From: Candidatus Iainarchaeum sp.
Lineage (GTDB): Archaea > Iainarchaeota > Iainarchaeia > Iainarchaeales > 0-14-0-20-30-16
DNA: 24,179 nt
Direction of reading: 5' to 3'
NCBI GenBank assembly: GCA_028710695.1
Contig: JAQTTP010000011.1
Coordinates: forward strand, 1-24,179
Below are positions 1,920 to 8,181 of this stretch, in pieces. The position numbers and the translations under genes are program-made. How positions within the stretch are numbered: the stretch's first letter is position 1; every line of letters starts with the position of its first letter. The notes beneath the pieces were generated by a model. The model did not search any database. It was not told the DNA's origin and saw only the letters and a program-made list of their open reading frames with translations.

Positions 1920-2006
1920 CTAATATTTTCTGATCCAACCCCAAATATAATGTCTTATTCTCCCAAAAAGGAGAAAATATATAGTTTTCTATCATATAGT
2001 AAATAT

Positions 2007-2744
2007 ATGTTAGATAAATTGATTTCTTTTGGCCTTACAAAAACCCAGGCAGAAATATATTTGTATTTACTCAGAAAAGGCAACTCTACGACCGGCCCAA
2101 TAATAAAAAGTACGGGAATATCAAATTCAAGAGTTTATACTGCTTTAGAAGAGCTCATAAAAAAAGGACTTGTATCCTACAATATACAATCAAACGGAAA
2201 ACATTTTTATGCAGAAAACCCAGAAAAGTTCTTAGATTTAGAGCAAGAAAAACAAAAGCAAATGGAAGACATAATTCCTGATCTAAAAAAAATGATTGGA
2301 AAACAGCCAGATTCCACAAGCTACGCAGTATTTGAAGGGATAGAAGGAACAAAAACCGCATTCAAAAGAATTTTAGAAGATTGTCCAGTAGGGGCAACCA
2401 TTTACGTCATTGGATTTTCAGAGCAAAACTATGGGGTAAGATCATTGAGAACAATAATTTCTAAATCACATAAAAGACACATAGAAAAAAAACATATTGT
2501 AAAGATACTGCTTGACTCAAAAATTAAGGGCCAGCCTATAGCAAAGGAGAGAGAAGTAGAGCCAATAACAGAAGTAAGATATATGCCCAAAGGGTACACA
2601 AGTCCAGCAGCAATAGATATTTTTGAAGATCAGGTTTACATTTTCTTGTGGGGCGAAAAGCCATCAGTATTTATGATTAAAAACAAAGAAGTGGCAGAAT
2701 CATTTAAACATTATTTTAAGTTCCTGTGGAGTTTAGCAAAATAA
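2007..2744 (+). CDS. TrmB-family transcriptional regulator
   Basis: N-terminal winged HTH (LTKTQAEIYLYLLRKGNSTTGPIIKSTGISNSRVYTALEELIKKGLV) plus a C-terminal effector-like domain. I prefer the ATG at 2007 (MLDKLISFG...) over the listed 1950, because an ATATATA element at 1977..1983 is centred about 27 nt upstream, consistent with a leaderless start. Confidence 0.75.
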   Translation: MLDKLISFGLTKTQAEIYLYLLRKGNSTTGPIIKSTGISNSRVYTALEELIKKGLVSYNIQSNGKHFYAENPEKFLDLEQEKQKQMEDIIPDLKKMIGKQPDSTSYAVFEGIEGTKTAFKRILEDCPVGATIYVIGFSEQNYGVRSLRTIISKSHKRHIEKKHIVKILLDSKIKGQPIAKEREVEPITEVRYMPKGYTSPAAIDIFEDQVYIFLWGEKPSVFMIKNKEVAESFKHYFKFLWSLAK

Positions 2745-3302: not shown

Positions 3303-3815
3303 CTAAAGTAATTTCCCAAATACATAAACATCCAGATACTTTCCATCATCAGTAAGCAAAGCTTTTCTTTTTGTGCCCTCTAATTTGAACCCGCATTTCT
3401 CTGCCATTCTTATGGAACCAATATTCTTTACTACAACTTCTGCTTCTGCCCTTTTAAAGCCTTTCTTTTTTGCCTGTTCTAAAGCGTACTTTAACAATTT
3501 AGTTCCTATTCCTTGACCTTCAAACCCAGGATAAACACCCCAGCCAAAACCAACTATATGTTTCTGCCTACCAGTCTTTCTAAAACTATAACTTAGTTGT
3601 CCAACAACTTTTTTGGTTTTTTTGTCAATTGCAATAAACATTTTGAATGTTGAATTTTTTGGAGACAAACGATCAAGTAGTTGTTTATATCTTTTAGAAG
3701 TATATTTATTGCTTCCAGTATAAATCCAAGTTTTTTGTTTTAATCCTTGTTTTGAAACTTCTGCAATTCCTTTTGCATCGTCCAGTCTTGCTTTTCTAAT
3801 AGTTACAGAAATCAT
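3303..3815 (-). CDS. GNAT-family N-acetyltransferase
   Basis: IRKARLDDAKGIAEV, the acetyl-CoA binding motif FEGQGIGTKLLKYALEQAKKKGFKRAEAEV, and NIGSIRMAEKCGFKLEG. Confidence 0.8.
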   Translation of the reverse strand: MISVTIRKARLDDAKGIAEVSKQGLKQKTWIYTGSNKYTSKRYKQLLDRLSPKNSTFKMFIAIDKKTKKVVGQLSYSFRKTGRQKHIVGFGWGVYPGFEGQGIGTKLLKYALEQAKKKGFKRAEAEVVVKNIGSIRMAEKCGFKLEGTKRKALLTDDGKYLDVYVFGKLL

Positions 3816-3876: not shown

Positions 3877-4533
3877 TTAAGGCTCACGGATAACATTATT
3901 AAAATAACTAGAGCAATAATAATTATGCAACATATTTATATCTTTCTTATCTAATGGTTTTATTTTCTTGTTTATGCACAGGATGTGATAATTAAGTTTT
4001 GCTATTTCTTCTAAAGCAATTGCTTTTTTTACTACTTCGCCTGGAGACATTCCAAATATTAATGCCCCATGTCGTTCAAGAAGCATCGTCTCTTGGCCTG
4101 ATGCTATTGCAGCCATACCAATATTAGATAATCTATGATTTACATAAGGCATACAAAAGACTTCGGTCCCAAAATAGTCTGCCTGTAATGTTGTCAAAAT
4201 TTTCAGGGGTTTATTCAAACTACTCATAACAGTAGTAAAGTGAGCATGGGTATGTAATATGCAGTTAATCTTTTTCTTGTTTTTGTATATTTCTATATGC
4301 ATATCTAAATCAGAAGATGGCTTTTTTCCTGAAACCAGTTTACCAGACAAATCTACTATTGATATATCTTTTGTTTTAATTTCAGAATATGCAAAGCCAC
4401 AAGGCTTTATTGCAATCAGGTTATTAGATAACCTTATGCTTATATTTCCTGAAGACAATATTTCTATATTTTTGTCGTCAAGTATATGTATATATTTTGT
4501 TAAATCTTGTTTTTTAAAGACTATTCTTACCAC
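3877..4533 (-). CDS. Class II aldolase/adducin-family protein, closest by motif to L-ribulose-5-phosphate 4-epimerase (AraD-like)
   Basis: SSGNISIR, IAIKPCGFAYSEI, KKPSSDLDMHIEIY, metal-binding ILHTHAHFTT, LQADYFGTEVFCMPY, LLERHGALIFG. GTG start. Overlaps the upstream hydrolase gene by 20 nt. Confidence 0.8.
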   Translation of the reverse strand: MVRIVFKKQDLTKYIHILDDKNIEILSSGNISIRLSNNLIAIKPCGFAYSEIKTKDISIVDLSGKLVSGKKPSSDLDMHIEIYKNKKKINCILHTHAHFTTVMSSLNKPLKILTTLQADYFGTEVFCMPYVNHRLSNIGMAAIASGQETMLLERHGALIFGMSPGEVVKKAIALEEIAKLNYHILCINKKIKPLDKKDINMLHNYYCSSYFNNVIREP

Positions 4534-5227
4534 CTAATAAATCAGTTATTGTTTTATCATCCATTTTTATTGAGTGCCCACCAGATTTAGTAACTATTTG
4601 GGGGGAATATTTACCAATTATCGCATCTATCTCTTCTTTTAAGATTGCAGGGTCTTCCTTTGCAACAACTAAAAACAAATTAGTTTTTGTTTGGGGGAGT
4701 TTTACTTTTTTTAAGTCTGCAACTGTTCTTTTTGCATCTATTCTATATACTTGTGGATATGCCCTTTGCAAAAATTCAAATGTTTTCTGTATATTTTCGC
4801 CTTTTTTGTTATTTATATGTTGGGCAGGGTCTATAAAAGGACAAATTAAAATAGTTCTATTTACTTTTACGGATTGTAATATAGCCGGTAATGCCCCATA
4901 ACTAAAACCCAGCAAAAATACAGGGTTTCTTGCCCAAGTTATTTTTTTATTCGCATAAAGCTCTTTTGCCTGCCCTTTTTTAACTAATCTAATAGCTTGT
5001 TCTATGCTTTTTGTTGAGTTTTTTATGTTAAAGACACCATTACTTTCCCAAGTTCCAGGATAACGTGGAATAAATAAATTATATCCCAACCGAGCCAGTT
5101 GTTCAACAAGAGGGTGATATTTATCAAAATATTGTGGCATACCCGGTGCAACAACAACATTACCTTTATTCCCATTAAGCCAAATGCTCATCAAAATATC
5201 TTTTTCTATAATTCTAAATTCAACCAT
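4514..5227 (-). CDS. Alpha/beta-fold hydrolase
   Basis: Nucleophile elbow GFSYG (G-x-S-x-G), candidate acid in VVAKEDPAI and candidate His in SGGHSI. I prefer the ATG at 5227: GGTGA lies 5 nt upstream, and the start is 1 nt after the upstream TAG stop. The listed TTG is at 5239. Confidence 0.65.
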   Translation of the reverse strand: MVEFRIIEKDILMSIWLNGNKGNVVVAPGMPQYFDKYHPLVEQLARLGYNLFIPRYPGTWESNGVFNIKNSTKSIEQAIRLVKKGQAKELYANKKITWARNPVFLLGFSYGALPAILQSVKVNRTILICPFIDPAQHINNKKGENIQKTFEFLQRAYPQVYRIDAKRTVADLKKVKLPQTKTNLFLVVAKEDPAILKEEIDAIIGKYSPQIVTKSGGHSIKMDDKTITDLLGGKNSL

Positions 5228-5228
5228 A

Positions 5229-6461
5229 CTATTCACCAAAATAAATGTTTTTTAATTCAAATAACATATTATATTCAGATAGTGACAAGTTATTATTCTT
5301 TACTATCTTCCAGCAAATGTTAACGTAATTTTGCATAGACTCAAATGCTGCAGACAACTTGAAATTATTTACTGCATTATTAAATAGATTAATTTGCACA
5401 GCCAAATCTTGTCTAATTGATTCATTATTTTTATCCTTATTTGTTTGCAATATTTTTTTAAGTTTTAAATATATTTTTAATAAATCTCGCGTCTGCAATT
5501 GCAGTTTTGATGGATCTATAACCTTATCCTGATTAATATTATGTTTCAAAAAATAAGCTCGCAAAATTTTGTTATTAATGCCTTTAAATAATTCTTTTTG
5601 AGACCCATCGTCTTTTTGCCATTTTAATTTTTTTCCATCTGGACCTAATAAAAGGCCATGCGATACAATTTTTGTAGGGCAGTCATTATTATTAAGGTAA
5701 CATAGAGAATAATAATCAAATTTTTTTATAACATCCCCATGTATCCAAACTCTTTTTGTATATTTGTGACTACAAAGAATTGCAGGAAGCATTATGGCAG
5801 CAAACCGCGGATCCAAATTAAATCCATTATATTCTATTGTATAGGCCCTATTTTTTTCTAAAATAAGGTCATAAGTTTCAGGTAGAGAAAATACAAAGGT
5901 TTTTAGTTTTTGCCTGATACAGTTAGGAAAAAATGCTATTGTGGCCATTTTTCTCTCAATAGTTTTTCTATTTATCTTTTTAAAAAGACTAGTTTTTGTT
6001 TGAGAAATTAGGGGGCGATTACATTTTTTACAAGAACAGATAGTTGGGTCTGAGCCATATATATTACCACAACTACTACATTCTATTATATTTGTTTGCC
6101 CCACAGTTATTGAATCTTTGTATGTGGTTTTAAACAACCGAACCAAATTTTTTTTGATTTTATCGTCTCTAACAATATAATCAAAGGACAAATAATGATT
6201 TTTTAAATCTTTTTTTATTTGTTTTATGGCAAGCAAGATATATTTTTTTATATTGTCTTTTGTAGGGGCTTTATTTTCAAAGGTAATTTGCTTAATTAAT
6301 GGTTCACCATTAATATTCAACAGAAAAGGAGCAAATACCTTTATTCCTGCAAGTCGCCTGGCTTTTGCATAAAAATCAGCAATTGTTAAATCATAAATAT
6401 TTCCCACACTTAGGCCTTTTTTTATCTGAGTTGGTGCAATAATAATTATTTCAGAATCCAT
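5229..6461 (-). CDS. Methionyl-tRNA-synthetase-like class I aaRS paralog with degenerate HIGH and KMSKS motifs
   Basis: Collinear with the MetRS layout. IIIIAPTQIKKGLSVGNIYDLTIADFYAKARRLAG corresponds to the P-x-x-N-G-x-x-H-L-G-H region, with SVGN in place of HLGH. Zn-knuckle cysteines are retained (CSSCGN...CSCKKCN). HGLLLGPDGKKLKWQKDDGS has KLKWQ in place of KMSKS. LRAYFLK is followed by a helical C-terminal domain. I prefer the ATG at 6461 (MDSEIIII), which has GGAGT 7 nt upstream, over the listed 6554. Confidence 0.6.
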   Translation of the reverse strand: MDSEIIIIAPTQIKKGLSVGNIYDLTIADFYAKARRLAGIKVFAPFLLNINGEPLIKQITFENKAPTKDNIKKYILLAIKQIKKDLKNHYLSFDYIVRDDKIKKNLVRLFKTTYKDSITVGQTNIIECSSCGNIYGSDPTICSCKKCNRPLISQTKTSLFKKINRKTIERKMATIAFFPNCIRQKLKTFVFSLPETYDLILEKNRAYTIEYNGFNLDPRFAAIMLPAILCSHKYTKRVWIHGDVIKKFDYYSLCYLNNNDCPTKIVSHGLLLGPDGKKLKWQKDDGSQKELFKGINNKILRAYFLKHNINQDKVIDPSKLQLQTRDLLKIYLKLKKILQTNKDKNNESIRQDLAVQINLFNNAVNNFKLSAAFESMQNYVNICWKIVKNNNLSLSEYNMLFELKNIYFGE

Positions 6462-7224
6462 TTGTTTTACTCCGCTTTTTAAAGGCAATATAGTCTTGGA
6501 ATATTCTTTTATCCAAATAAGTAAGAAATTCATATGCAACTTCAACATCCTCATCTGTAATGTTTATTGGCCTATTTACTTTTATCTGCAAAAATTTTTC
6601 TGGGTTTATAGGGGGTTCAAAAATATCGTAAAATGCTTTGAGAGCCGTTTTCTTATCTAAAGGATATATTTCTTTTGTTGCAAGAGCATATAATGCCCCA
6701 TATATGCACCATTTCATCATGAGTATTCTGCCGTCTTGGTCCAAATTCTTGTTAATTAGTAACTTTCTTGCTTGATAATTAAGAGAATTTATCACCCTTA
6801 CTGCCTCAATAATTATTTCTGATTTTGAAAATTTTGTTGACTTAAAATAGTTTTCTCCAATCAATTGATTACCATATAGTTCTATTTCTTTTTGCATATA
6901 TAGTCCACGGTTATTATGCCAAAAGACTTCTTTTCTTATTGCTGGCACATCGTCACAACTATGGACATTTATATCAGTTATAACCCCTTTTTCGGCATAT
7001 TTCTTTTTTATTTTCTTCAGCTTTTTTAATAAACTAATATCTGGCTTTTTAATAACTAATAATATATCAAAATCGCTTTTTATACAAAAATCTTCATTCA
7101 ATGTACTACCATAAACAGTTGCACTAAGTATTTGATCTTTTAGATCAGTTAGTAGATCTTGTTTTATATCCTGCAAAATTTTCTCTCTATTGCTTTTGTT
7201 TTTTATCTTTAGATCTAAAGTCAT
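6451..7224 (-). CDS. Pol-beta-superfamily nucleotidyltransferase with a C-terminal helical domain (KNTase/ANT-like architecture)
   Basis: Minimal NTase signature YGSTLNEDFCIKSDFDILLV (G-S ... D-x-D), followed by about 150 aa predicted helical. I prefer the ATG at 7224 (GAGGA 5 nt upstream) over the listed TTG at 7236. The 3' end overlaps the MetRS-like gene by 11 nt. Confidence 0.7.
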   Translation of the reverse strand: MTLDLKIKNKSNREKILQDIKQDLLTDLKDQILSATVYGSTLNEDFCIKSDFDILLVIKKPDISLLKKLKKIKKKYAEKGVITDINVHSCDDVPAIRKEVFWHNNRGLYMQKEIELYGNQLIGENYFKSTKFSKSEIIIEAVRVINSLNYQARKLLINKNLDQDGRILMMKWCIYGALYALATKEIYPLDKKTALKAFYDIFEPPINPEKFLQIKVNRPINITDEDVEVAYEFLTYLDKRIFQDYIAFKKRSKTNGF

Positions 7225-7344
7225 TATAATCCTCAAAATAAGCCATTCCTAAGGCAAAATTGCCATTTTTATATTTTATGGAGAGAATATATTTTTAAAG
7301 AGATGTAACTAAGTAGTTGCGATTACTCTATTTAAAGAAGAATT

Positions 7345-8181
7345 TTATGTTTTATTGTTTATTTTCTGCAGATATTTACCTAATTTATAATAAACCCATT
7401 TCTGATTTGGGAAATGTGCTTGTTTTAACAAGCCATTAAAAGAAAGCCATTTATAAGCTATATGTTCATCACTTAATTTTAGCTTTTTTTCTTTTGTAGT
7501 TGCGGCAAAATGAGTTACATATGCTTTTCTTAGGCCCCCTTTACTAACATAAGTATGCATAGTAACAAAATATTCATTTTTAAGATCATAATTAGTAATT
7601 CCTGTTTCTTCCATTATTTCTCGTTTAACTGTTTCTGTTGTTGTTTCCCCTTCTTCTGTTCCGCCTTTGGGAATATTCCAATAAACTTCATCCTCAAGAT
7701 TATGCCTAAGAAGTAAAAACTTTTTTAGATTTGGATTATACAATAAAGCCCCGGCACCATTTCGAATACAAAAATCACTGGCTTTTTCCAAAAGTTCTTG
7801 CCTATTTAAAATTTTTCTAGAATATATTAAATTTCCGGCATTCTTTTCAGTTATTATTTCAAAATAGTTTTTAGAAATTCCAAAACCAGCAATATGCCAC
7901 AATTGTGTTAACTCGTCTAATAGTTTTTGTGGGCTCTTTTTAGATAAATATTTGTTTAGATCTTTATCTTTAACAAAAATCAGCTCTAATGGTTCTTTTA
8001 CTGTTTTTAGCAAAGTTTTTATTTTTTCTTTCGTATTATTTTCTGACAACACAATTAATAGTTTTAGTTTATTAAGATTTATTTCATTATAAAGAACATT
8101 TGCAGATGAAAAATCCAGCCTATTATTCATCAGAGTTTCTTTTATTTTTTCAAATGCAGAAAAATAGGAAATATAATCCAT
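7345..8181 (-). CDS. Nudix hydrolase with an unrecognised N-terminal domain of about 140 aa
   Basis: Complete Nudix box GGTEEGETTTETVKREIMEETGI (G-x5-E-x7-R-E-x2-E-E-x-G-U) in the C-terminal half. The N-terminal half has no motif I can name. Confidence 0.8.
   Translation of the reverse strand: MDYISYFSAFEKIKETLMNNRLDFSSANVLYNEINLNKLKLLIVLSENNTKEKIKTLLKTVKEPLELIFVKDKDLNKYLSKKSPQKLLDELTQLWHIAGFGISKNYFEIITEKNAGNLIYSRKILNRQELLEKASDFCIRNGAGALLYNPNLKKFLLLRHNLEDEVYWNIPKGGTEEGETTTETVKREIMEETGITNYDLKNEYFVTMHTYVSKGGLRKAYVTHFAATTKEKKLKLSDEHIAYKWLSFNGLLKQAHFPNQKWVYYKLGKYLQKINNKT

What the first reader, a model, noticed from the sequence alone, without database searches (positions are those of the whole stretch)
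5229..6461. MetRS-like class I aaRS paralog that has lost both catalytic signature motifs
Seen: the protein is collinear with methionyl-tRNA synthetase. It has the Rossmann N-terminus, retained Cys knuckles CSSCGN / CSCKKCN in the connective-peptide position, an LRAYF segment and a helical C-terminal domain. However, the HIGH position reads SVGN and the KMSKS position reads KLKWQ.

Established: HIGH and KMSKS stabilise the ATP transition state in class I synthetases, and their loss normally abolishes amino acid activation.

Inference: this is not the housekeeping MetRS. It is a repurposed tRNA-, methionine- or nucleotide-binding scaffold.
Basis: partly seen in the sequence, partly recalled or inferred. 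Interest (0 to 1): 0.68.

Follow-up and report, generated by a model that had tools for sequence, protein, structure and literature searches.

The report
Synthetase-shaped enzyme paired with nucleotidyltransferase
This gene encodes a well-conserved protein shaped like a tRNA-charging enzyme that is not the cell's methionine-charging enzyme; it belongs to an undescribed, rare, horizontally moving family that is almost always encoded next to a nucleotide-transferring enzyme and usually an esterase, so it probably handles a small molecule, and what that molecule is remains unknown.

Summary
Window 5229-6461 (minus strand) encodes a 410-aa protein with a confident class Ia aminoacyl-tRNA-synthetase fold. 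SVGN sits at the HIGH position, KKLKWQ at KMSKS, and four invariant Cys form a zinc knuckle.

It is not the housekeeping enzyme. This genome and three other host genomes each carry a normal MetRS.

- "Both motifs lost" overstates it. The G-N of HIGH, the ribose-binding Asp, the His-Gly and the first Lys of KMSKS are kept. N at HIGH position 4 is normal here, because the genome's own MetRS reads HLGN. Only the first His and the second Lys are gone.
- It is not specifically MetRS-derived. It belongs to a deep class Ia-like clade. An AU test disfavours grouping it with MetRS (p=0.027) but not with ValRS (p=0.32).

The whole clade has replaced the amino-group-binding Asp with Asn and gained an Asp-Asp pair.

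An ANT/KNTase-like nucleotidyltransferase flanks it in 12 of 13 loci, a serine esterase in 9 of 13, and an AraD-like aldolase/epimerase in 7 of 13. Gene fusions link these partners.

It most likely acts on a small molecule together with the nucleotidyltransferase. The substrate is unknown. Earlier notes of this scan report related modules in other genomes. I found no paper describing the family.

The parts
5229..6461 (-). Class Ia aaRS-like protein (410 aa, P0001), member of an unannotated family
6399..6410 (-). HIGH-equivalent SVGN (res 18-21). The first His is absent in all members. G20 and N21 are at least 90% conserved.
6306..6317 (-). NING (res 49-52). Invariant Asn49 replaces the class Ia alpha-amino-binding Asp (GxDxxG).
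6162..6170 (-). Invariant R98-D99-D100. This acidic pair replaces the canonical (R)T(T) and is shared with the sister families.
6021..6080 (-). Zinc knuckle C128-x2-C131...C144-x2-C147, with invariant G136 and D138 inside it
5802..5816 (-). LDPRF (res 216-220), at the position of ValRS 'DTWF' / MetRS 'VWxDA'. The amino-acid pocket Trp is replaced by Arg/Lys.
5709..5741 (-). HGDVIKKFDYY (res 241-251). It contains the retained 'GxD' Asp243 plus invariant K246, K247 and Y250.
5616..5633 (-). KMSKS-equivalent KKLKWQ (res 277-282). K278 is invariant and Trp281 sits at the second-Lys position. H268-G269 lie upstream at 5655-5660.
6451..7236 (-). Partner 1: ANT/KNTase-like Pol-beta nucleotidyltransferase. 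GS..DxD..D is intact, with an invariant FWHNNR motif. Its stop overlaps the start of the aaRS-like gene by 11 nt.
4514..5227 (-). Partner 2: alpha/beta serine hydrolase of carboxylesterase type, with an intact Ser109-Asp192-His218 triad. Its ATG lies 1 nt after the aaRS-like stop.
3877..4533 (-). Partner 3: AraD-like class II aldolase/epimerase (PSSD, HTHAH, ADYFG, HG motifs). It overlaps the hydrolase gene.
3303..3815 (-). RimL-type GNAT acetyltransferase directly downstream on the same strand. It may belong to the operon in this genome, but it is not conserved at other loci.
   Evidence: absent

Best explanation
The gene encodes a non-translational enzyme derived from a class Ia aminoacyl-tRNA synthetase that has no editing domain. 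It works as an obligate partner of an ANT/KNTase-type nucleotidyltransferase. Together with a carboxylesterase-type serine hydrolase and, in this subfamily, an AraD-type aldolase/epimerase, it makes or processes a small ester-linked acyl/sugar/nucleotide-type compound. It does not charge tRNA with methionine.

Shown:
- The synthetase fold.
- The conserved pocket.
- The loss of the first His of HIGH, of the second Lys of KMSKS and of the alpha-amino-binding Asp.
- The gain of an invariant Arg-Asp-Asp.
- The conserved gene neighbourhood, with fusions between the partners.

Inferred:
- The Rossmann pocket still holds an adenosine/ribose-type moiety, because Gly-Asn, Asp243, His268-Gly269 and Lys278 are kept.
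- It no longer drives ATP alpha-beta cleavage efficiently.
- That nucleotidyl-transfer step is supplied by the translationally coupled nucleotidyltransferase.
- The synthetase-like protein binds a non-amino-acid partner through the new acidic and basic residues. It then carries out or templates the second, ester-forming or acyl-transfer half reaction on a sugar hydroxyl.
- The esterase cleaves such an ester, and the AraD-like enzyme handles a ketose-phosphate part.
For: Fold and paralog status:
- Fold: pLDDT 92.4; MetRS/LeuRS TM 0.70-0.73.
- Paralog status: canonical MetRS in this and three other host genomes.

Selection on the pocket:
- There are 22 invariant columns, all between residues 49 and 278.
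- 15-20% of catalytic-fold columns are at least 90% conserved, against 3% in the C-terminal helical domain.
- Motif states across 45 class Ia sequences are tabulated.

Neighbourhood in 13 independent loci (archaeal and bacterial):
- NTase 12/13, always immediately upstream or divergent; hydrolase 9/13; aldolase 7/13.
- Start/stop overlaps in the window.
- Fusions: hydrolase-aldolase in L011; NTase-hydrolase in L023 and L025 beside sister-family members.
- Sister family P0181 also has an adjacent hydrolase and NTase.

Partners look catalytically intact:
- NTase: GS/DxD/D invariant; nearest solved relatives are kanamycin NTase and AadA.
- Hydrolase: Ser-Asp-His invariant; the fold is nearest to feruloyl esterases and monoacylglycerol lipases.
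- Aldolase: nearest to L-ribulose-5-P 4-epimerase.

Distribution fits an accessory module:
- 28 clusters at E below 1e-30 in 1.84 billion representatives.
- 3 of 185,579 species genomes, by a scan with one peptide pattern that can miss divergent members.
- 0 of 195 other genomes of the same order.
Against: - No substrate, product or activity is known.
- The division of labour between the NTase and the synthetase-like protein is inference from motif states and gene coupling only.
- I had no model coordinates, so pocket geometry was judged from alignments alone.
- Sister families keep HxG[NST] and K[IM]S[KR][YH] yet have the same partners. So the NTase cannot simply be a replacement for lost adenylation in the whole clade.
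- [ST]xGN is a working HIGH variant in TrpRS, so the protein may still use ATP itself.
- The aldolase and hydrolase are absent at some loci (L017, L019, L027).
- In L019 the NTase is reduced to a remnant while the synthetase-like ORF is intact.
Confidence: 0.4

Rival explanations
1. It is still a self-sufficient ATP-dependent ligase, like MshC (the CysRS paralog that ligates Cys to an amino sugar). It would use variant signature motifs (SxGN, KK[LIV][RK]W) to adenylate a carboxylic acid that lacks a free alpha-amine and join it to a sugar-type acceptor. The NTase, esterase and AraD-like enzyme would act on other steps of the same pathway.
For: - G20, N21, D243, H268 and K278 are conserved.
- TIGN is a functional HIGH variant in E. 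coli TrpRS.
- The own MetRS has HLGN.
- Arg/Lys at position 280 lies next to the lost Lys.
- Sister families keep near-canonical KISKY/KMSRY.
- Accessory genes are sugar-type: AraD-like, and an inositol-phosphatase/APH fusion in L025.
Against: - The first His of HIGH and the second Lys of KMSKS are both absent in all or nearly all core members. From established MetRS mutagenesis work, recalled and not checked here, these are the residues that stabilise the transition state.
- No acceptor or acid can be named.
Confidence: 0.2
2. It is part of an immunity/detoxification module against an aminoacyl-nucleotide or aminoacyl-nucleoside type inhibitor of class Ia synthetases. The disarmed synthetase-like protein would bind the inhibitor as a decoy or presenter. 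The ANT-like NTase would modify it and the esterase would cleave it.
For: - The NTase is nearest to aminoglycoside nucleotidyltransferases.
- The serine hydrolase partner is intact.
- In L015 the alpha/beta hydrolase is missing and an S66 (MccF/LdcA-family) peptidase gene lies adjacent.
- A RimL-type GNAT lies directly downstream in the window.
- The distribution is sporadic and cross-domain, as is typical of resistance genes.
- Earlier notes of this scan raise the same idea for related modules. Those notes are leads only.
Against: - The amino-group-binding Asp is lost, which argues against binding an aminoacyl-adenylate mimic in the canonical way.
- The AraD-like enzyme, and the radical SAM and kinase/phosphatase partners of sister families, fit a metabolic pathway better.
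- GNAT and S66 are single-locus observations.
- No transporter is conserved.
Confidence: 0.15
3. It acts on tRNA in one of two ways. It could be an aminoacyl-tRNA-dependent transferase, like cyclodipeptide synthases or the IleRS-like SbzA, that moves an acyl group from charged tRNA to a small acceptor. Or it could be the effector of a toxin-antitoxin or defence-like pair in which the NTase regulates it by nucleotidylation.
For: - The class Ia architecture, including a helical C-terminal domain, is retained.
- Precedents exist: CDPS lost HIGH and use aa-tRNA (PMC2922099), and SbzA uses Ile-tRNA as donor (PMC6331615).
- The gene pair is tight and its distribution is patchy and mobile.
- The NTase gives weak hits to PADLOC candidate-defence NTase models.
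Against: - The C-terminal (anticodon-binding) domain is the least conserved part: 3% of columns reach 90% conservation, and no conserved anticodon-reading residues are seen.
- The aaRS-like protein has no PADLOC hit.
- There are no viral-contig relatives and no tRNA gene nearby.
- The esterase, aldolase, radical SAM and kinase partners do not fit a toxin-antitoxin pair.
Confidence: 0.15
4. It is a decaying, functionless relic of a synthetase gene.
For: Canonical signature residues are lost. In L019 the cassette is degraded around the gene.
Against: - The ORFs are intact, with 32-52% pairwise identity across archaea and bacteria.
- There are 22 invariant and 31 near-invariant columns concentrated in one pocket.
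- The fold prediction is confident.
- Synteny and fusions are conserved.
Confidence: 0.03

Closest known systems
Methionyl-tRNA synthetase (class Ia; e.g. T. thermophilus 2d54/1a8h)
   Same: - Overall architecture: Rossmann catalytic fold, one CxxC...CxxC zinc knuckle in the connective peptide, no editing domain, stem-contact fold, helical C-terminal domain.
- Best overall fold match (TMq 0.73).
   Different: - No first His of HIGH, no second Lys of KMSKS, no alpha-amino-binding Asp and no methionine-pocket motif.
- Below the Pfam cut-off.
- Grouping with MetRS is disfavoured (AU p=0.027).
- A real MetRS is present elsewhere in the genome.
Archaeal-type valyl-tRNA synthetase (NCBIfam PRK13208) and ~420-490-aa 'mini-ValRS' proteins without an editing domain (P0063, P0065, P0071, P0073, P0084)
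   Same: - Best-scoring canonical sequence relatives of the family profile: 58-71 bits against 52 for MetRS.
- Shared motif shapes: WNxNGxP against FDxNGLP, and LDPRF against FDTWF.
- A clade with them is not rejected (p=0.29-0.32).
   Different: - They keep HIGH, KMSKS and the Asp.
- Scores are far below the family cut-offs (33.6 against 738 bits).
- On the free tree they sit with the canonical enzymes.
Sister families of small class Ia-like proteins (P0057/P0060, P0055/P0181, P0058/P0059, P0061/P0069/P0070/P0072), all unannotated
   Same: - Same size.
- Same derived states: WN for the Asp, a DD pair, DP[RK]F.
- Same partners: A2-like NTase and A3-like hydrolase, fused in L023 and L025.
   Different: - They retain HxG[NSTV] and K[IM]S[KR][YH].
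- Their accessory genes are different (radical SAM, an inositol-phosphatase/APH fusion), not the AraD-like enzyme.
MshC (CysRS paralog, cysteine:GlcN-inositol ligase), and the cupin-associated bacterial MetRS paralog of Aravind et al. 2010 (PMC2922099)
   Same: Class I synthetase paralogs that coexist with the housekeeping enzyme and are dedicated to small-molecule synthesis.
   Different: - Both keep the adenylation residues (stated for the MetRS paralog; MshC from memory).
- Their partners are different (cupin, lysine N6-monooxygenase), and that MetRS paralog is reported only from bacteria.
Cyclodipeptide synthases and SbzA (aa-tRNA-dependent transferases with a class I synthetase fold)
   Same: - The synthetase fold is reused without, or with weakened, ATP chemistry.
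- CDPS lost HIGH.
- SbzA is class Ia and transfers Ile from Ile-tRNA to a small molecule.
   Different: - CDPS are small, class Ic-like, and have no anticodon domain.
- SbzA is full-length IleRS-like, with an editing domain and near-intact motifs.
- Neither is linked to an NTase/esterase pair.
- tRNA use by the present family is untested.

Membership tests
Methionyl-tRNA synthetase (PF09334 / TIGR00398) | Score above the curated family cut-off | tested here: not met
   PF09334 scores 18.6 bits against 20.1, covers residues 19-149 only, and is hit by 4 of 28 family members. There is no metG NCBIfam hit.
Methionyl-tRNA synthetase (PF09334 / TIGR00398) | HIGH signature (H-x-G-H/N) | tested here: not met
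   The motif reads [SGTN]-x-G-N. The first His is absent in all core members, while G and N are retained.
Methionyl-tRNA synthetase (PF09334 / TIGR00398) | KMSKS signature with the second Lys | tested here: not met
   The motif reads K-[LIV]-[RK]-W-[QR]. K278 is invariant and Trp sits at the second Lys position.
Methionyl-tRNA synthetase (PF09334 / TIGR00398) | Alpha-amino-binding Asp (GTDEHG) and methionine-pocket motif (YVWxDAxxxY) | tested here: not met
   N49 is invariant in place of the Asp, and LDPRF stands in place of VWxDA.
Methionyl-tRNA synthetase (PF09334 / TIGR00398) | Branches within MetRS on a class Ia tree | tested here: not met
   It lies on a separate side of the tree. A constrained clade with MetRS gives AU p=0.027. 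This was a quick tree with long branches, so the result is moderate evidence.
Methionyl-tRNA synthetase (PF09334 / TIGR00398) | tRNA-Met aminoacylation activity | not testable with these tools
   This needs a biochemical assay.
Class Ia aaRS structural superfamily (Rossmann fold + CP zinc knuckle + helical anticodon-type domain) | Fold and domain order | tested here: met
   The AF2 model has pLDDT 92.4. Foldseek finds MetRS and LeuRS at E about 1e-18 with TMq up to 0.73.
Valyl-tRNA synthetase (PRK13208) | Score above the cut-off; CP1 editing domain | tested here: not met
   It scores 33.6 bits against 738, and at 410 aa it has no editing-domain insert.
NTase-linked small class Ia-like clade (undescribed; defined here and in earlier notes of this scan) | Adjacent KNTase/ANT-like Pol-beta NTase homologous to profile A2 | tested here: met
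   The window gene at 6451-7236 scores 393 bits. The NTase is adjacent in 12 of 13 core loci and in 3 of 3 sister loci examined.
NTase-linked small class Ia-like clade (undescribed; defined here and in earlier notes of this scan) | Adjacent serine hydrolase | tested here: met
   The window gene at 4514-5227 has an intact Ser-Asp-His triad. A hydrolase is adjacent in 9 of 13 core loci, and fused or adjacent in the sister loci.
NTase-linked small class Ia-like clade (undescribed; defined here and in earlier notes of this scan) | Shared derived residues: Asp to Asn in GxDxxG (WN), the acidic DD pair, DP[RK]F | tested here: met
   N49, D99-D100 and D217-P218-R219-F220 are present.
Cyclodipeptide synthase | Small (~240 aa) class Ic-like fold with a catalytic Ser; aa-tRNA substrates | tested here: not met
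   There is no CDPS Pfam hit at E up to 10. The architecture is class Ia with a C-terminal domain. tRNA use was not testable.

The most novel reading that the evidence does not exclude
The nucleotidyltransferase and the synthetase-like protein together form a split, two-protein 'synthetase'. In it, the activation (nucleotidyl-transfer) half reaction is catalysed by a Pol-beta-fold enzyme instead of the HIGH/KMSKS site. The disarmed Rossmann pocket performs only the ester-forming transfer onto a sugar hydroxyl. This would yield a previously unknown acyl-sugar or acyl-nucleotide metabolite in DPANN archaea and small-genome bacteria.
Probability: 0.15. Interest if true: 0.85.

Novelty: new variant of a known kind. 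Interest (0 to 1): 0.6.

Why it matters
Synthetase paralogs that left translation (MshC, cyclodipeptide synthases, SbzA, GluQ-RS) have each revealed new chemistry. This family is conserved and structurally confident. It carries no Pfam or NCBIfam assignment above the curated cut-offs, and no paper describing it turned up in the library searched. It has systematically rewired the amino-acid site (Asp to Asn, a new Arg-Asp-Asp, Trp to Arg/Lys) while keeping much of the nucleotide site. It is genetically locked to an antibiotic-modifying-type nucleotidyltransferase and an esterase.

The cassette occurs in both DPANN archaea and small-genome bacteria and is absent from close relatives of the hosts. 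So it is a traded accessory function in organisms that have very little metabolism of their own. Identifying its substrate would define a new enzyme family. It would show either a new route of acyl activation or a new resistance or salvage mechanism.

The work also corrects a tempting mis-annotation. This is not a MetRS, and it should not be counted as one in genome completeness or code analyses.

Tried and rejected
- **PADLOC.** No hit for the synthetase-like protein, hydrolase or aldolase. Only generic minimal-NTase hits for the NTase. A known defence system is not supported.
- **hhalign of the family profile against the own MetRS.** Only the N-terminal 145 columns aligned, at 14% probability. 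This was too weak to use beyond motif registers.
- **Sequence-only PDB search.** E=0.26 to MetRS. The fold search was needed.
- **Viral contigs.** No relatives, so there is no evidence the cassette is phage-borne.
- **Metagenome scan.** Only two further loci.
- **Methionine-salvage idea (MtnB-like aldolase plus Met-binding scaffold).** Rejected. The aldolase scores far better as AraD/FucA-like than as MtnB (142 against 61 bits), and the methionine pocket is not kept.
- **tRNA genes.** None in the window.
- **Literature.** Eight successful searches (and the reads 36, 73, 74, 77) found no description of this family or module.
- **MetRS or ValRS origin.** Only partly resolved. The MetRS-specific origin is disfavoured and the ValRS-type origin is allowed, but the tree is a quick one with long branches.
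Full report
**1. What is at the coordinates.**

The finding lies on the minus strand. The ORF runs 5229..6554. All 28 aligned homologues begin at the Met at 6461, which gives a 410-aa protein (P0001).

- A GGAG lies about 10 nt upstream of that ATG.
- The ATG is embedded in the last codons of the upstream gene. The shared string is ATGGATTCTGA, an 11-nt overlap.
- The stop TAG is followed after 1 nt by the ATG of the next gene.
- The gene is therefore the second of at least four tightly coupled genes.

**2. Check of the observation.**

Sequence-only searches are weak but consistent.
- Pfam tRNA-synt_1g (MetRS) scores 18.6 bits, below its 20.1 cut-off, and covers residues 19-149 only.
- NCBIfam archaeal-type ValRS PRK13208 scores 33.6 bits against a cut-off of 738.
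- T. thermophilus MetRS in PDB gives E=0.26. That alignment puts SVGN under HLGH and GKKLKWQ under GRKMSKT.

An AlphaFold2 model built on the 28-sequence alignment is confident (pLDDT 92.4, pTM 0.91).
- Its best PDB matches are MetRS structures (2d54 TMq 0.73, 1a8h 0.70).
- The naturally editing-domain-less LeuRS of Mycoplasma mobile (3ziu) also matches, at E about 1e-18.

The four knuckle cysteines (C128, C131, C144, C147) are invariant, and G136 and D138 between them are invariant too.

**3. It is not the housekeeping enzyme.**

The window's genome is 899 kb in 27 contigs and about 86% complete. Homologues and earlier notes place it among DPANN archaea.
- It encodes a canonical 675-aa MetRS on another contig (469 bits to PF09334), plus Val/Ile/Leu/Cys-type enzymes.
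- Three other genomes that carry the family each also have a canonical MetRS. Two are Woesearchaeota/Nanoarchaeia and one is a 0.8-Mb uncultured bacterium.

**4. How 'lost' are the motifs?**

I aligned 45 class Ia sequences: the core family, sister families, mini-ValRS, MetRS, ValRS, LeuRS and the genome's own enzymes.

*HIGH*
- The core family reads [S/G/T/N]-x-G-N.
- Gly and Asn are at least 90% conserved.
- Asn at position 4 is normal. The genome's own MetRS reads HLGN and its own CysRS reads HIGN.
- E. coli TrpRS works with TIGN, 'equal to HIGH' (PMC10201369). One family member (P0028) reads TIGN literally.
- So only the first His is missing.

*KMSKS*
- The core family reads K-K-[LIV]-[RK]-W-[QR].
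- The first Lys (K278) is invariant. The catalytic second Lys is replaced by Trp, with an Arg/Lys immediately before it.

*Other nucleotide-site positions*
- These are kept: the 'GxD' Asp (D243, at least 90%) and the His-Gly before the KMSKS loop (H268 invariant).

*Amino-acid site*
- This site is rebuilt. The class Ia Asp that binds the substrate alpha-amino group (GTDEHG in MetRS, FDxNGLP in ValRS) is an invariant Asn (N49).
- The pocket Trp of 'DTWF'/'VWxDA' is Arg/Lys (LDPRF).
- The canonical (R)T(T) has become an invariant R98-D99-D100.

*Where conservation sits*
- It is concentrated in the catalytic fold, where 15-20% of columns are at least 90% conserved.
- It is low in the C-terminal helical domain, at 3%.

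My reading (inference):
- A pocket for an adenosine/ribose-type moiety probably persists.
- Efficient ATP alpha-beta cleavage and canonical amino-acid binding probably do not.
- The anticodon-type domain is not under the selection expected for specific tRNA reading.

**5. It is not specifically a MetRS offshoot.**

- A profile search of 1.84 billion representative proteins finds only 28 clusters at E below 1e-30.
- Beyond these lies a tail of other ~390-470-aa class Ia-like proteins, and then canonical enzymes.
- The best canonical hits are editing-domain-less 'mini-ValRS' proteins (64-71 bits) and archaeal-type ValRS (58-62 bits). These come ahead of bacterial LeuRS (52-54) and MetRS (48-52).
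- On a maximum-likelihood tree (LG+C20, quick search), the core family and all small sister families lie on one side. All canonical Met/Val/Leu/Ile enzymes and the mini-ValRS lie on the other, with branch support 98.
- Constraining family+MetRS costs 14.3 lnL (AU p=0.027). Family+ValRS/mini-ValRS (p=0.32) and family+mini-ValRS (p=0.29) are not rejected.
- With long branches this is moderate evidence. It agrees with the motif shapes: WNxNGxP against FDxNGLP, and LDPRF against FDTWF.
- The MetRS look of the fold match largely reflects the shared absence of an editing domain.

**6. The context is the key.**

I screened thirteen independent core-family loci with profiles of the neighbours (loci).

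| Partner | Loci where adjacent | Notes |
|---|---|---|
| ~250-265-aa Pol-beta nucleotidyltransferase | 12 of 13 | immediately upstream or divergent; in L019 only a C-terminal remnant |
| ~235-aa alpha/beta hydrolase | 9 of 13 | |
| class II aldolase-family protein | 7 of 13 | |

- The loci come from archaeal contexts and from clearly bacterial ones. The bacterial contexts contain DNA polymerase I, Ddl and RuvC in L011, and DnaE, DnaG and RuvB in L013.
- In L011 the hydrolase and aldolase are one 449-aa fusion protein.

*The partners look active.*
- The NTase has invariant G-S, D-x-D and a third Asp, plus an invariant FWHNNR motif. Its nearest solved relatives are kanamycin nucleotidyltransferase and streptomycin 3''-adenylyltransferase (AadA), which are the same size.
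- The hydrolase has an invariant Ser109 (GFSxG), Asp192 and His218. Its confident model (pLDDT 91) matches feruloyl esterases and monoacylglycerol lipases, which are carboxylesterases.
- The aldolase-family protein scores best as L-ribulose-5-phosphate 4-epimerase (142 bits). By inspection it carries the PSSD, HTHxH, ADYFG and HG motifs that I recall for AraD.

*The linkage extends to the sister families.*
- P0057 and P0060 (HIGS/KKISKY) lie beside a radical SAM gene and a 496-498-aa protein. That protein is an NTase-hydrolase fusion (A2-like E=8e-18, A3-like E=4e-16).
- P0181 (HIGT/KKMSRY) lies beside an A3-like hydrolase and an A2-like 460-aa NTase.
- So the trio of NTase, small class Ia-like protein and serine hydrolase is a property of the whole clade. 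The AraD-like enzyme is an add-on of the window's subfamily.

**7. Distribution.**

- The core family was found in 3 of 185,579 species genomes. That scan used one peptide pattern, so it can miss divergent members.
- It is in none of 195 other genomes of the same order. That includes two genomes of the same genus, which are 76-81% complete.
- It was not found on viral contigs.
- It is a rare accessory cassette shared across the archaea/bacteria boundary among small-genome organisms.

**8. Mechanism.**

*Shown*
- A conserved, folded, synthetase-shaped protein with a rewired pocket.
- Conserved genetic coupling, with fusions, to an ANT-type NTase, a carboxylesterase-type hydrolase and an AraD-type enzyme.

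*Inferred (confidence about 0.4)*
- The four proteins act on one small molecule that involves an ester on a sugar or ribose hydroxyl. Native synthetase chemistry makes such esters, feruloyl-type esterases cleave them, and ANT enzymes nucleotidylate such hydroxyls.
- The NTase supplies the nucleotidyl-transfer chemistry.
- The synthetase-like protein supplies binding of a nucleotide/ribose moiety and of a non-amino-acid partner, plus the transfer step.

*Weakness of this model*
- The sister families keep near-canonical ATP motifs yet have the same NTase partner. The NTase is therefore not merely a replacement for lost adenylation.

*Rivals*

| Rival | Confidence |
|---|---|
| Self-sufficient MshC-like ligase with variant motifs | 0.2 |
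| Immunity/detoxification module against aminoacyl-nucleotide-type synthetase inhibitors (NTase and hydrolase types fit; S66 peptidase adjacent in L015; RimL-type GNAT downstream here; the lost amino-binding Asp and the sugar-phosphate enzymes argue against) | 0.15 |
| tRNA-directed transferase or toxin-like pair (CDPS and SbzA are precedents; weak C-terminal conservation and the metabolic partners argue against) | 0.15 |
| Decaying relic (contradicted by the conservation) | 0.03 |

**9. Comparison with what is known.**

- The cupin-linked bacterial MetRS paralog of Aravind et al. keeps its catalytic residues and has different partners (PMC2922099).
- SbzA is a full-length IleRS-like enzyme with near-intact motifs that uses Ile-tRNA (PMC6331615).
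- A 2022 review of synthetase duplications does not mention MetRS or ValRS paralogs at all (PMC9437257).
- No paper describing this family or module was found.

Earlier notes of this scan flagged this same four-gene operon. They also flagged NTase + 'pseudo-MetRS' + hydrolase modules in several other genomes.
- I treated these notes as leads.
- I found the cassette independently before reading them.
- I tested the claim of a wider module myself on sister families, and it holds.
- Their label 'MetRS-derived' is not supported by my tree and motif analysis.

**10. Limits.**

- No biochemical data exist.
- The tree is a quick search with long branches.

**Verdict.** This is a real, undescribed, conserved family. 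Its interpretation is right in spirit but wrong on ancestry, too strong on 'dead', and misses the partner genes that define the system.

Noticed in passing
L001:646-2673 (own genome, contig C10): The genome's housekeeping MetRS reads HLGN/KVSKS. It ends in a ~190-aa extremely Lys/Val/Ala/Pro-rich tail (KPEKKVEPKKAEVKKEPK...) instead of a folded C-terminal tRNA-binding domain. This may be an appended non-specific RNA-binding tail.
   Followed up: no
P0063, P0065, P0071, P0073, P0084: These are ~420-490-aa 'mini-ValRS' proteins. They score 300-358 bits to archaeal-type ValRS with intact HIGH and KMSKS but have no CP1 editing domain. They look like a naturally editing-less ValRS-like family of unknown host and role.
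   Followed up: partly
L023:826-3378 (minus strand): Two adjacent genes (386 aa and 449 aa) both hit tRNA-synt_1, and the second also hits Anticodon_1. This looks like a split class Ia synthetase, next to the sister-family gene and another 811-aa synthetase. It is a local cluster of synthetase genes.
   Followed up: no
L019:5709-5987: In Woesearchaeota RIFOXYD1_FULL_40_14 only the C-terminal ~90 aa of the NTase remain, and no hydrolase or aldolase follows. The synthetase-like ORF is intact (50% identity). The cassette seems to be decaying around it.
   Followed up: partly
L013:5787-6483: The AraD-like gene is split into a 155-aa and a 90-aa ORF that overlap. This is either a frameshift or a genuine split. 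The second piece carries the AraD-like C-terminal ...HYYRKHGNGAYYGQ.
   Followed up: no
L015:3166-4149: At the one locus where the alpha/beta hydrolase is missing, an S66 (MccF/LdcA-family) serine peptidase gene lies convergent to the cassette. This may be a non-orthologous replacement of the hydrolase.
   Followed up: no
window 1950-2744; L009:6319-7086; L016:4878-5252: A TrmB-type sugar-responsive regulator lies near the cassette in the window and directly divergent from it in L009. A small winged-helix-like ORF overlaps the NTase start in L016. These may be cassette regulators.
   Followed up: no
window 7345-8181: A Nudix hydrolase with a ~140-aa N-terminal domain that has no family match lies 108 nt upstream of the NTase on the same strand. 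A Nudix gene also lies ~4 kb from the cassette in L016. It is not conserved elsewhere.
   Followed up: no
L025:4241-5899: This is a 552-aa fusion of an inositol-monophosphatase-like domain and an APH-type kinase domain, next to the NTase-hydrolase fusion of a sister-family locus.
   Followed up: no
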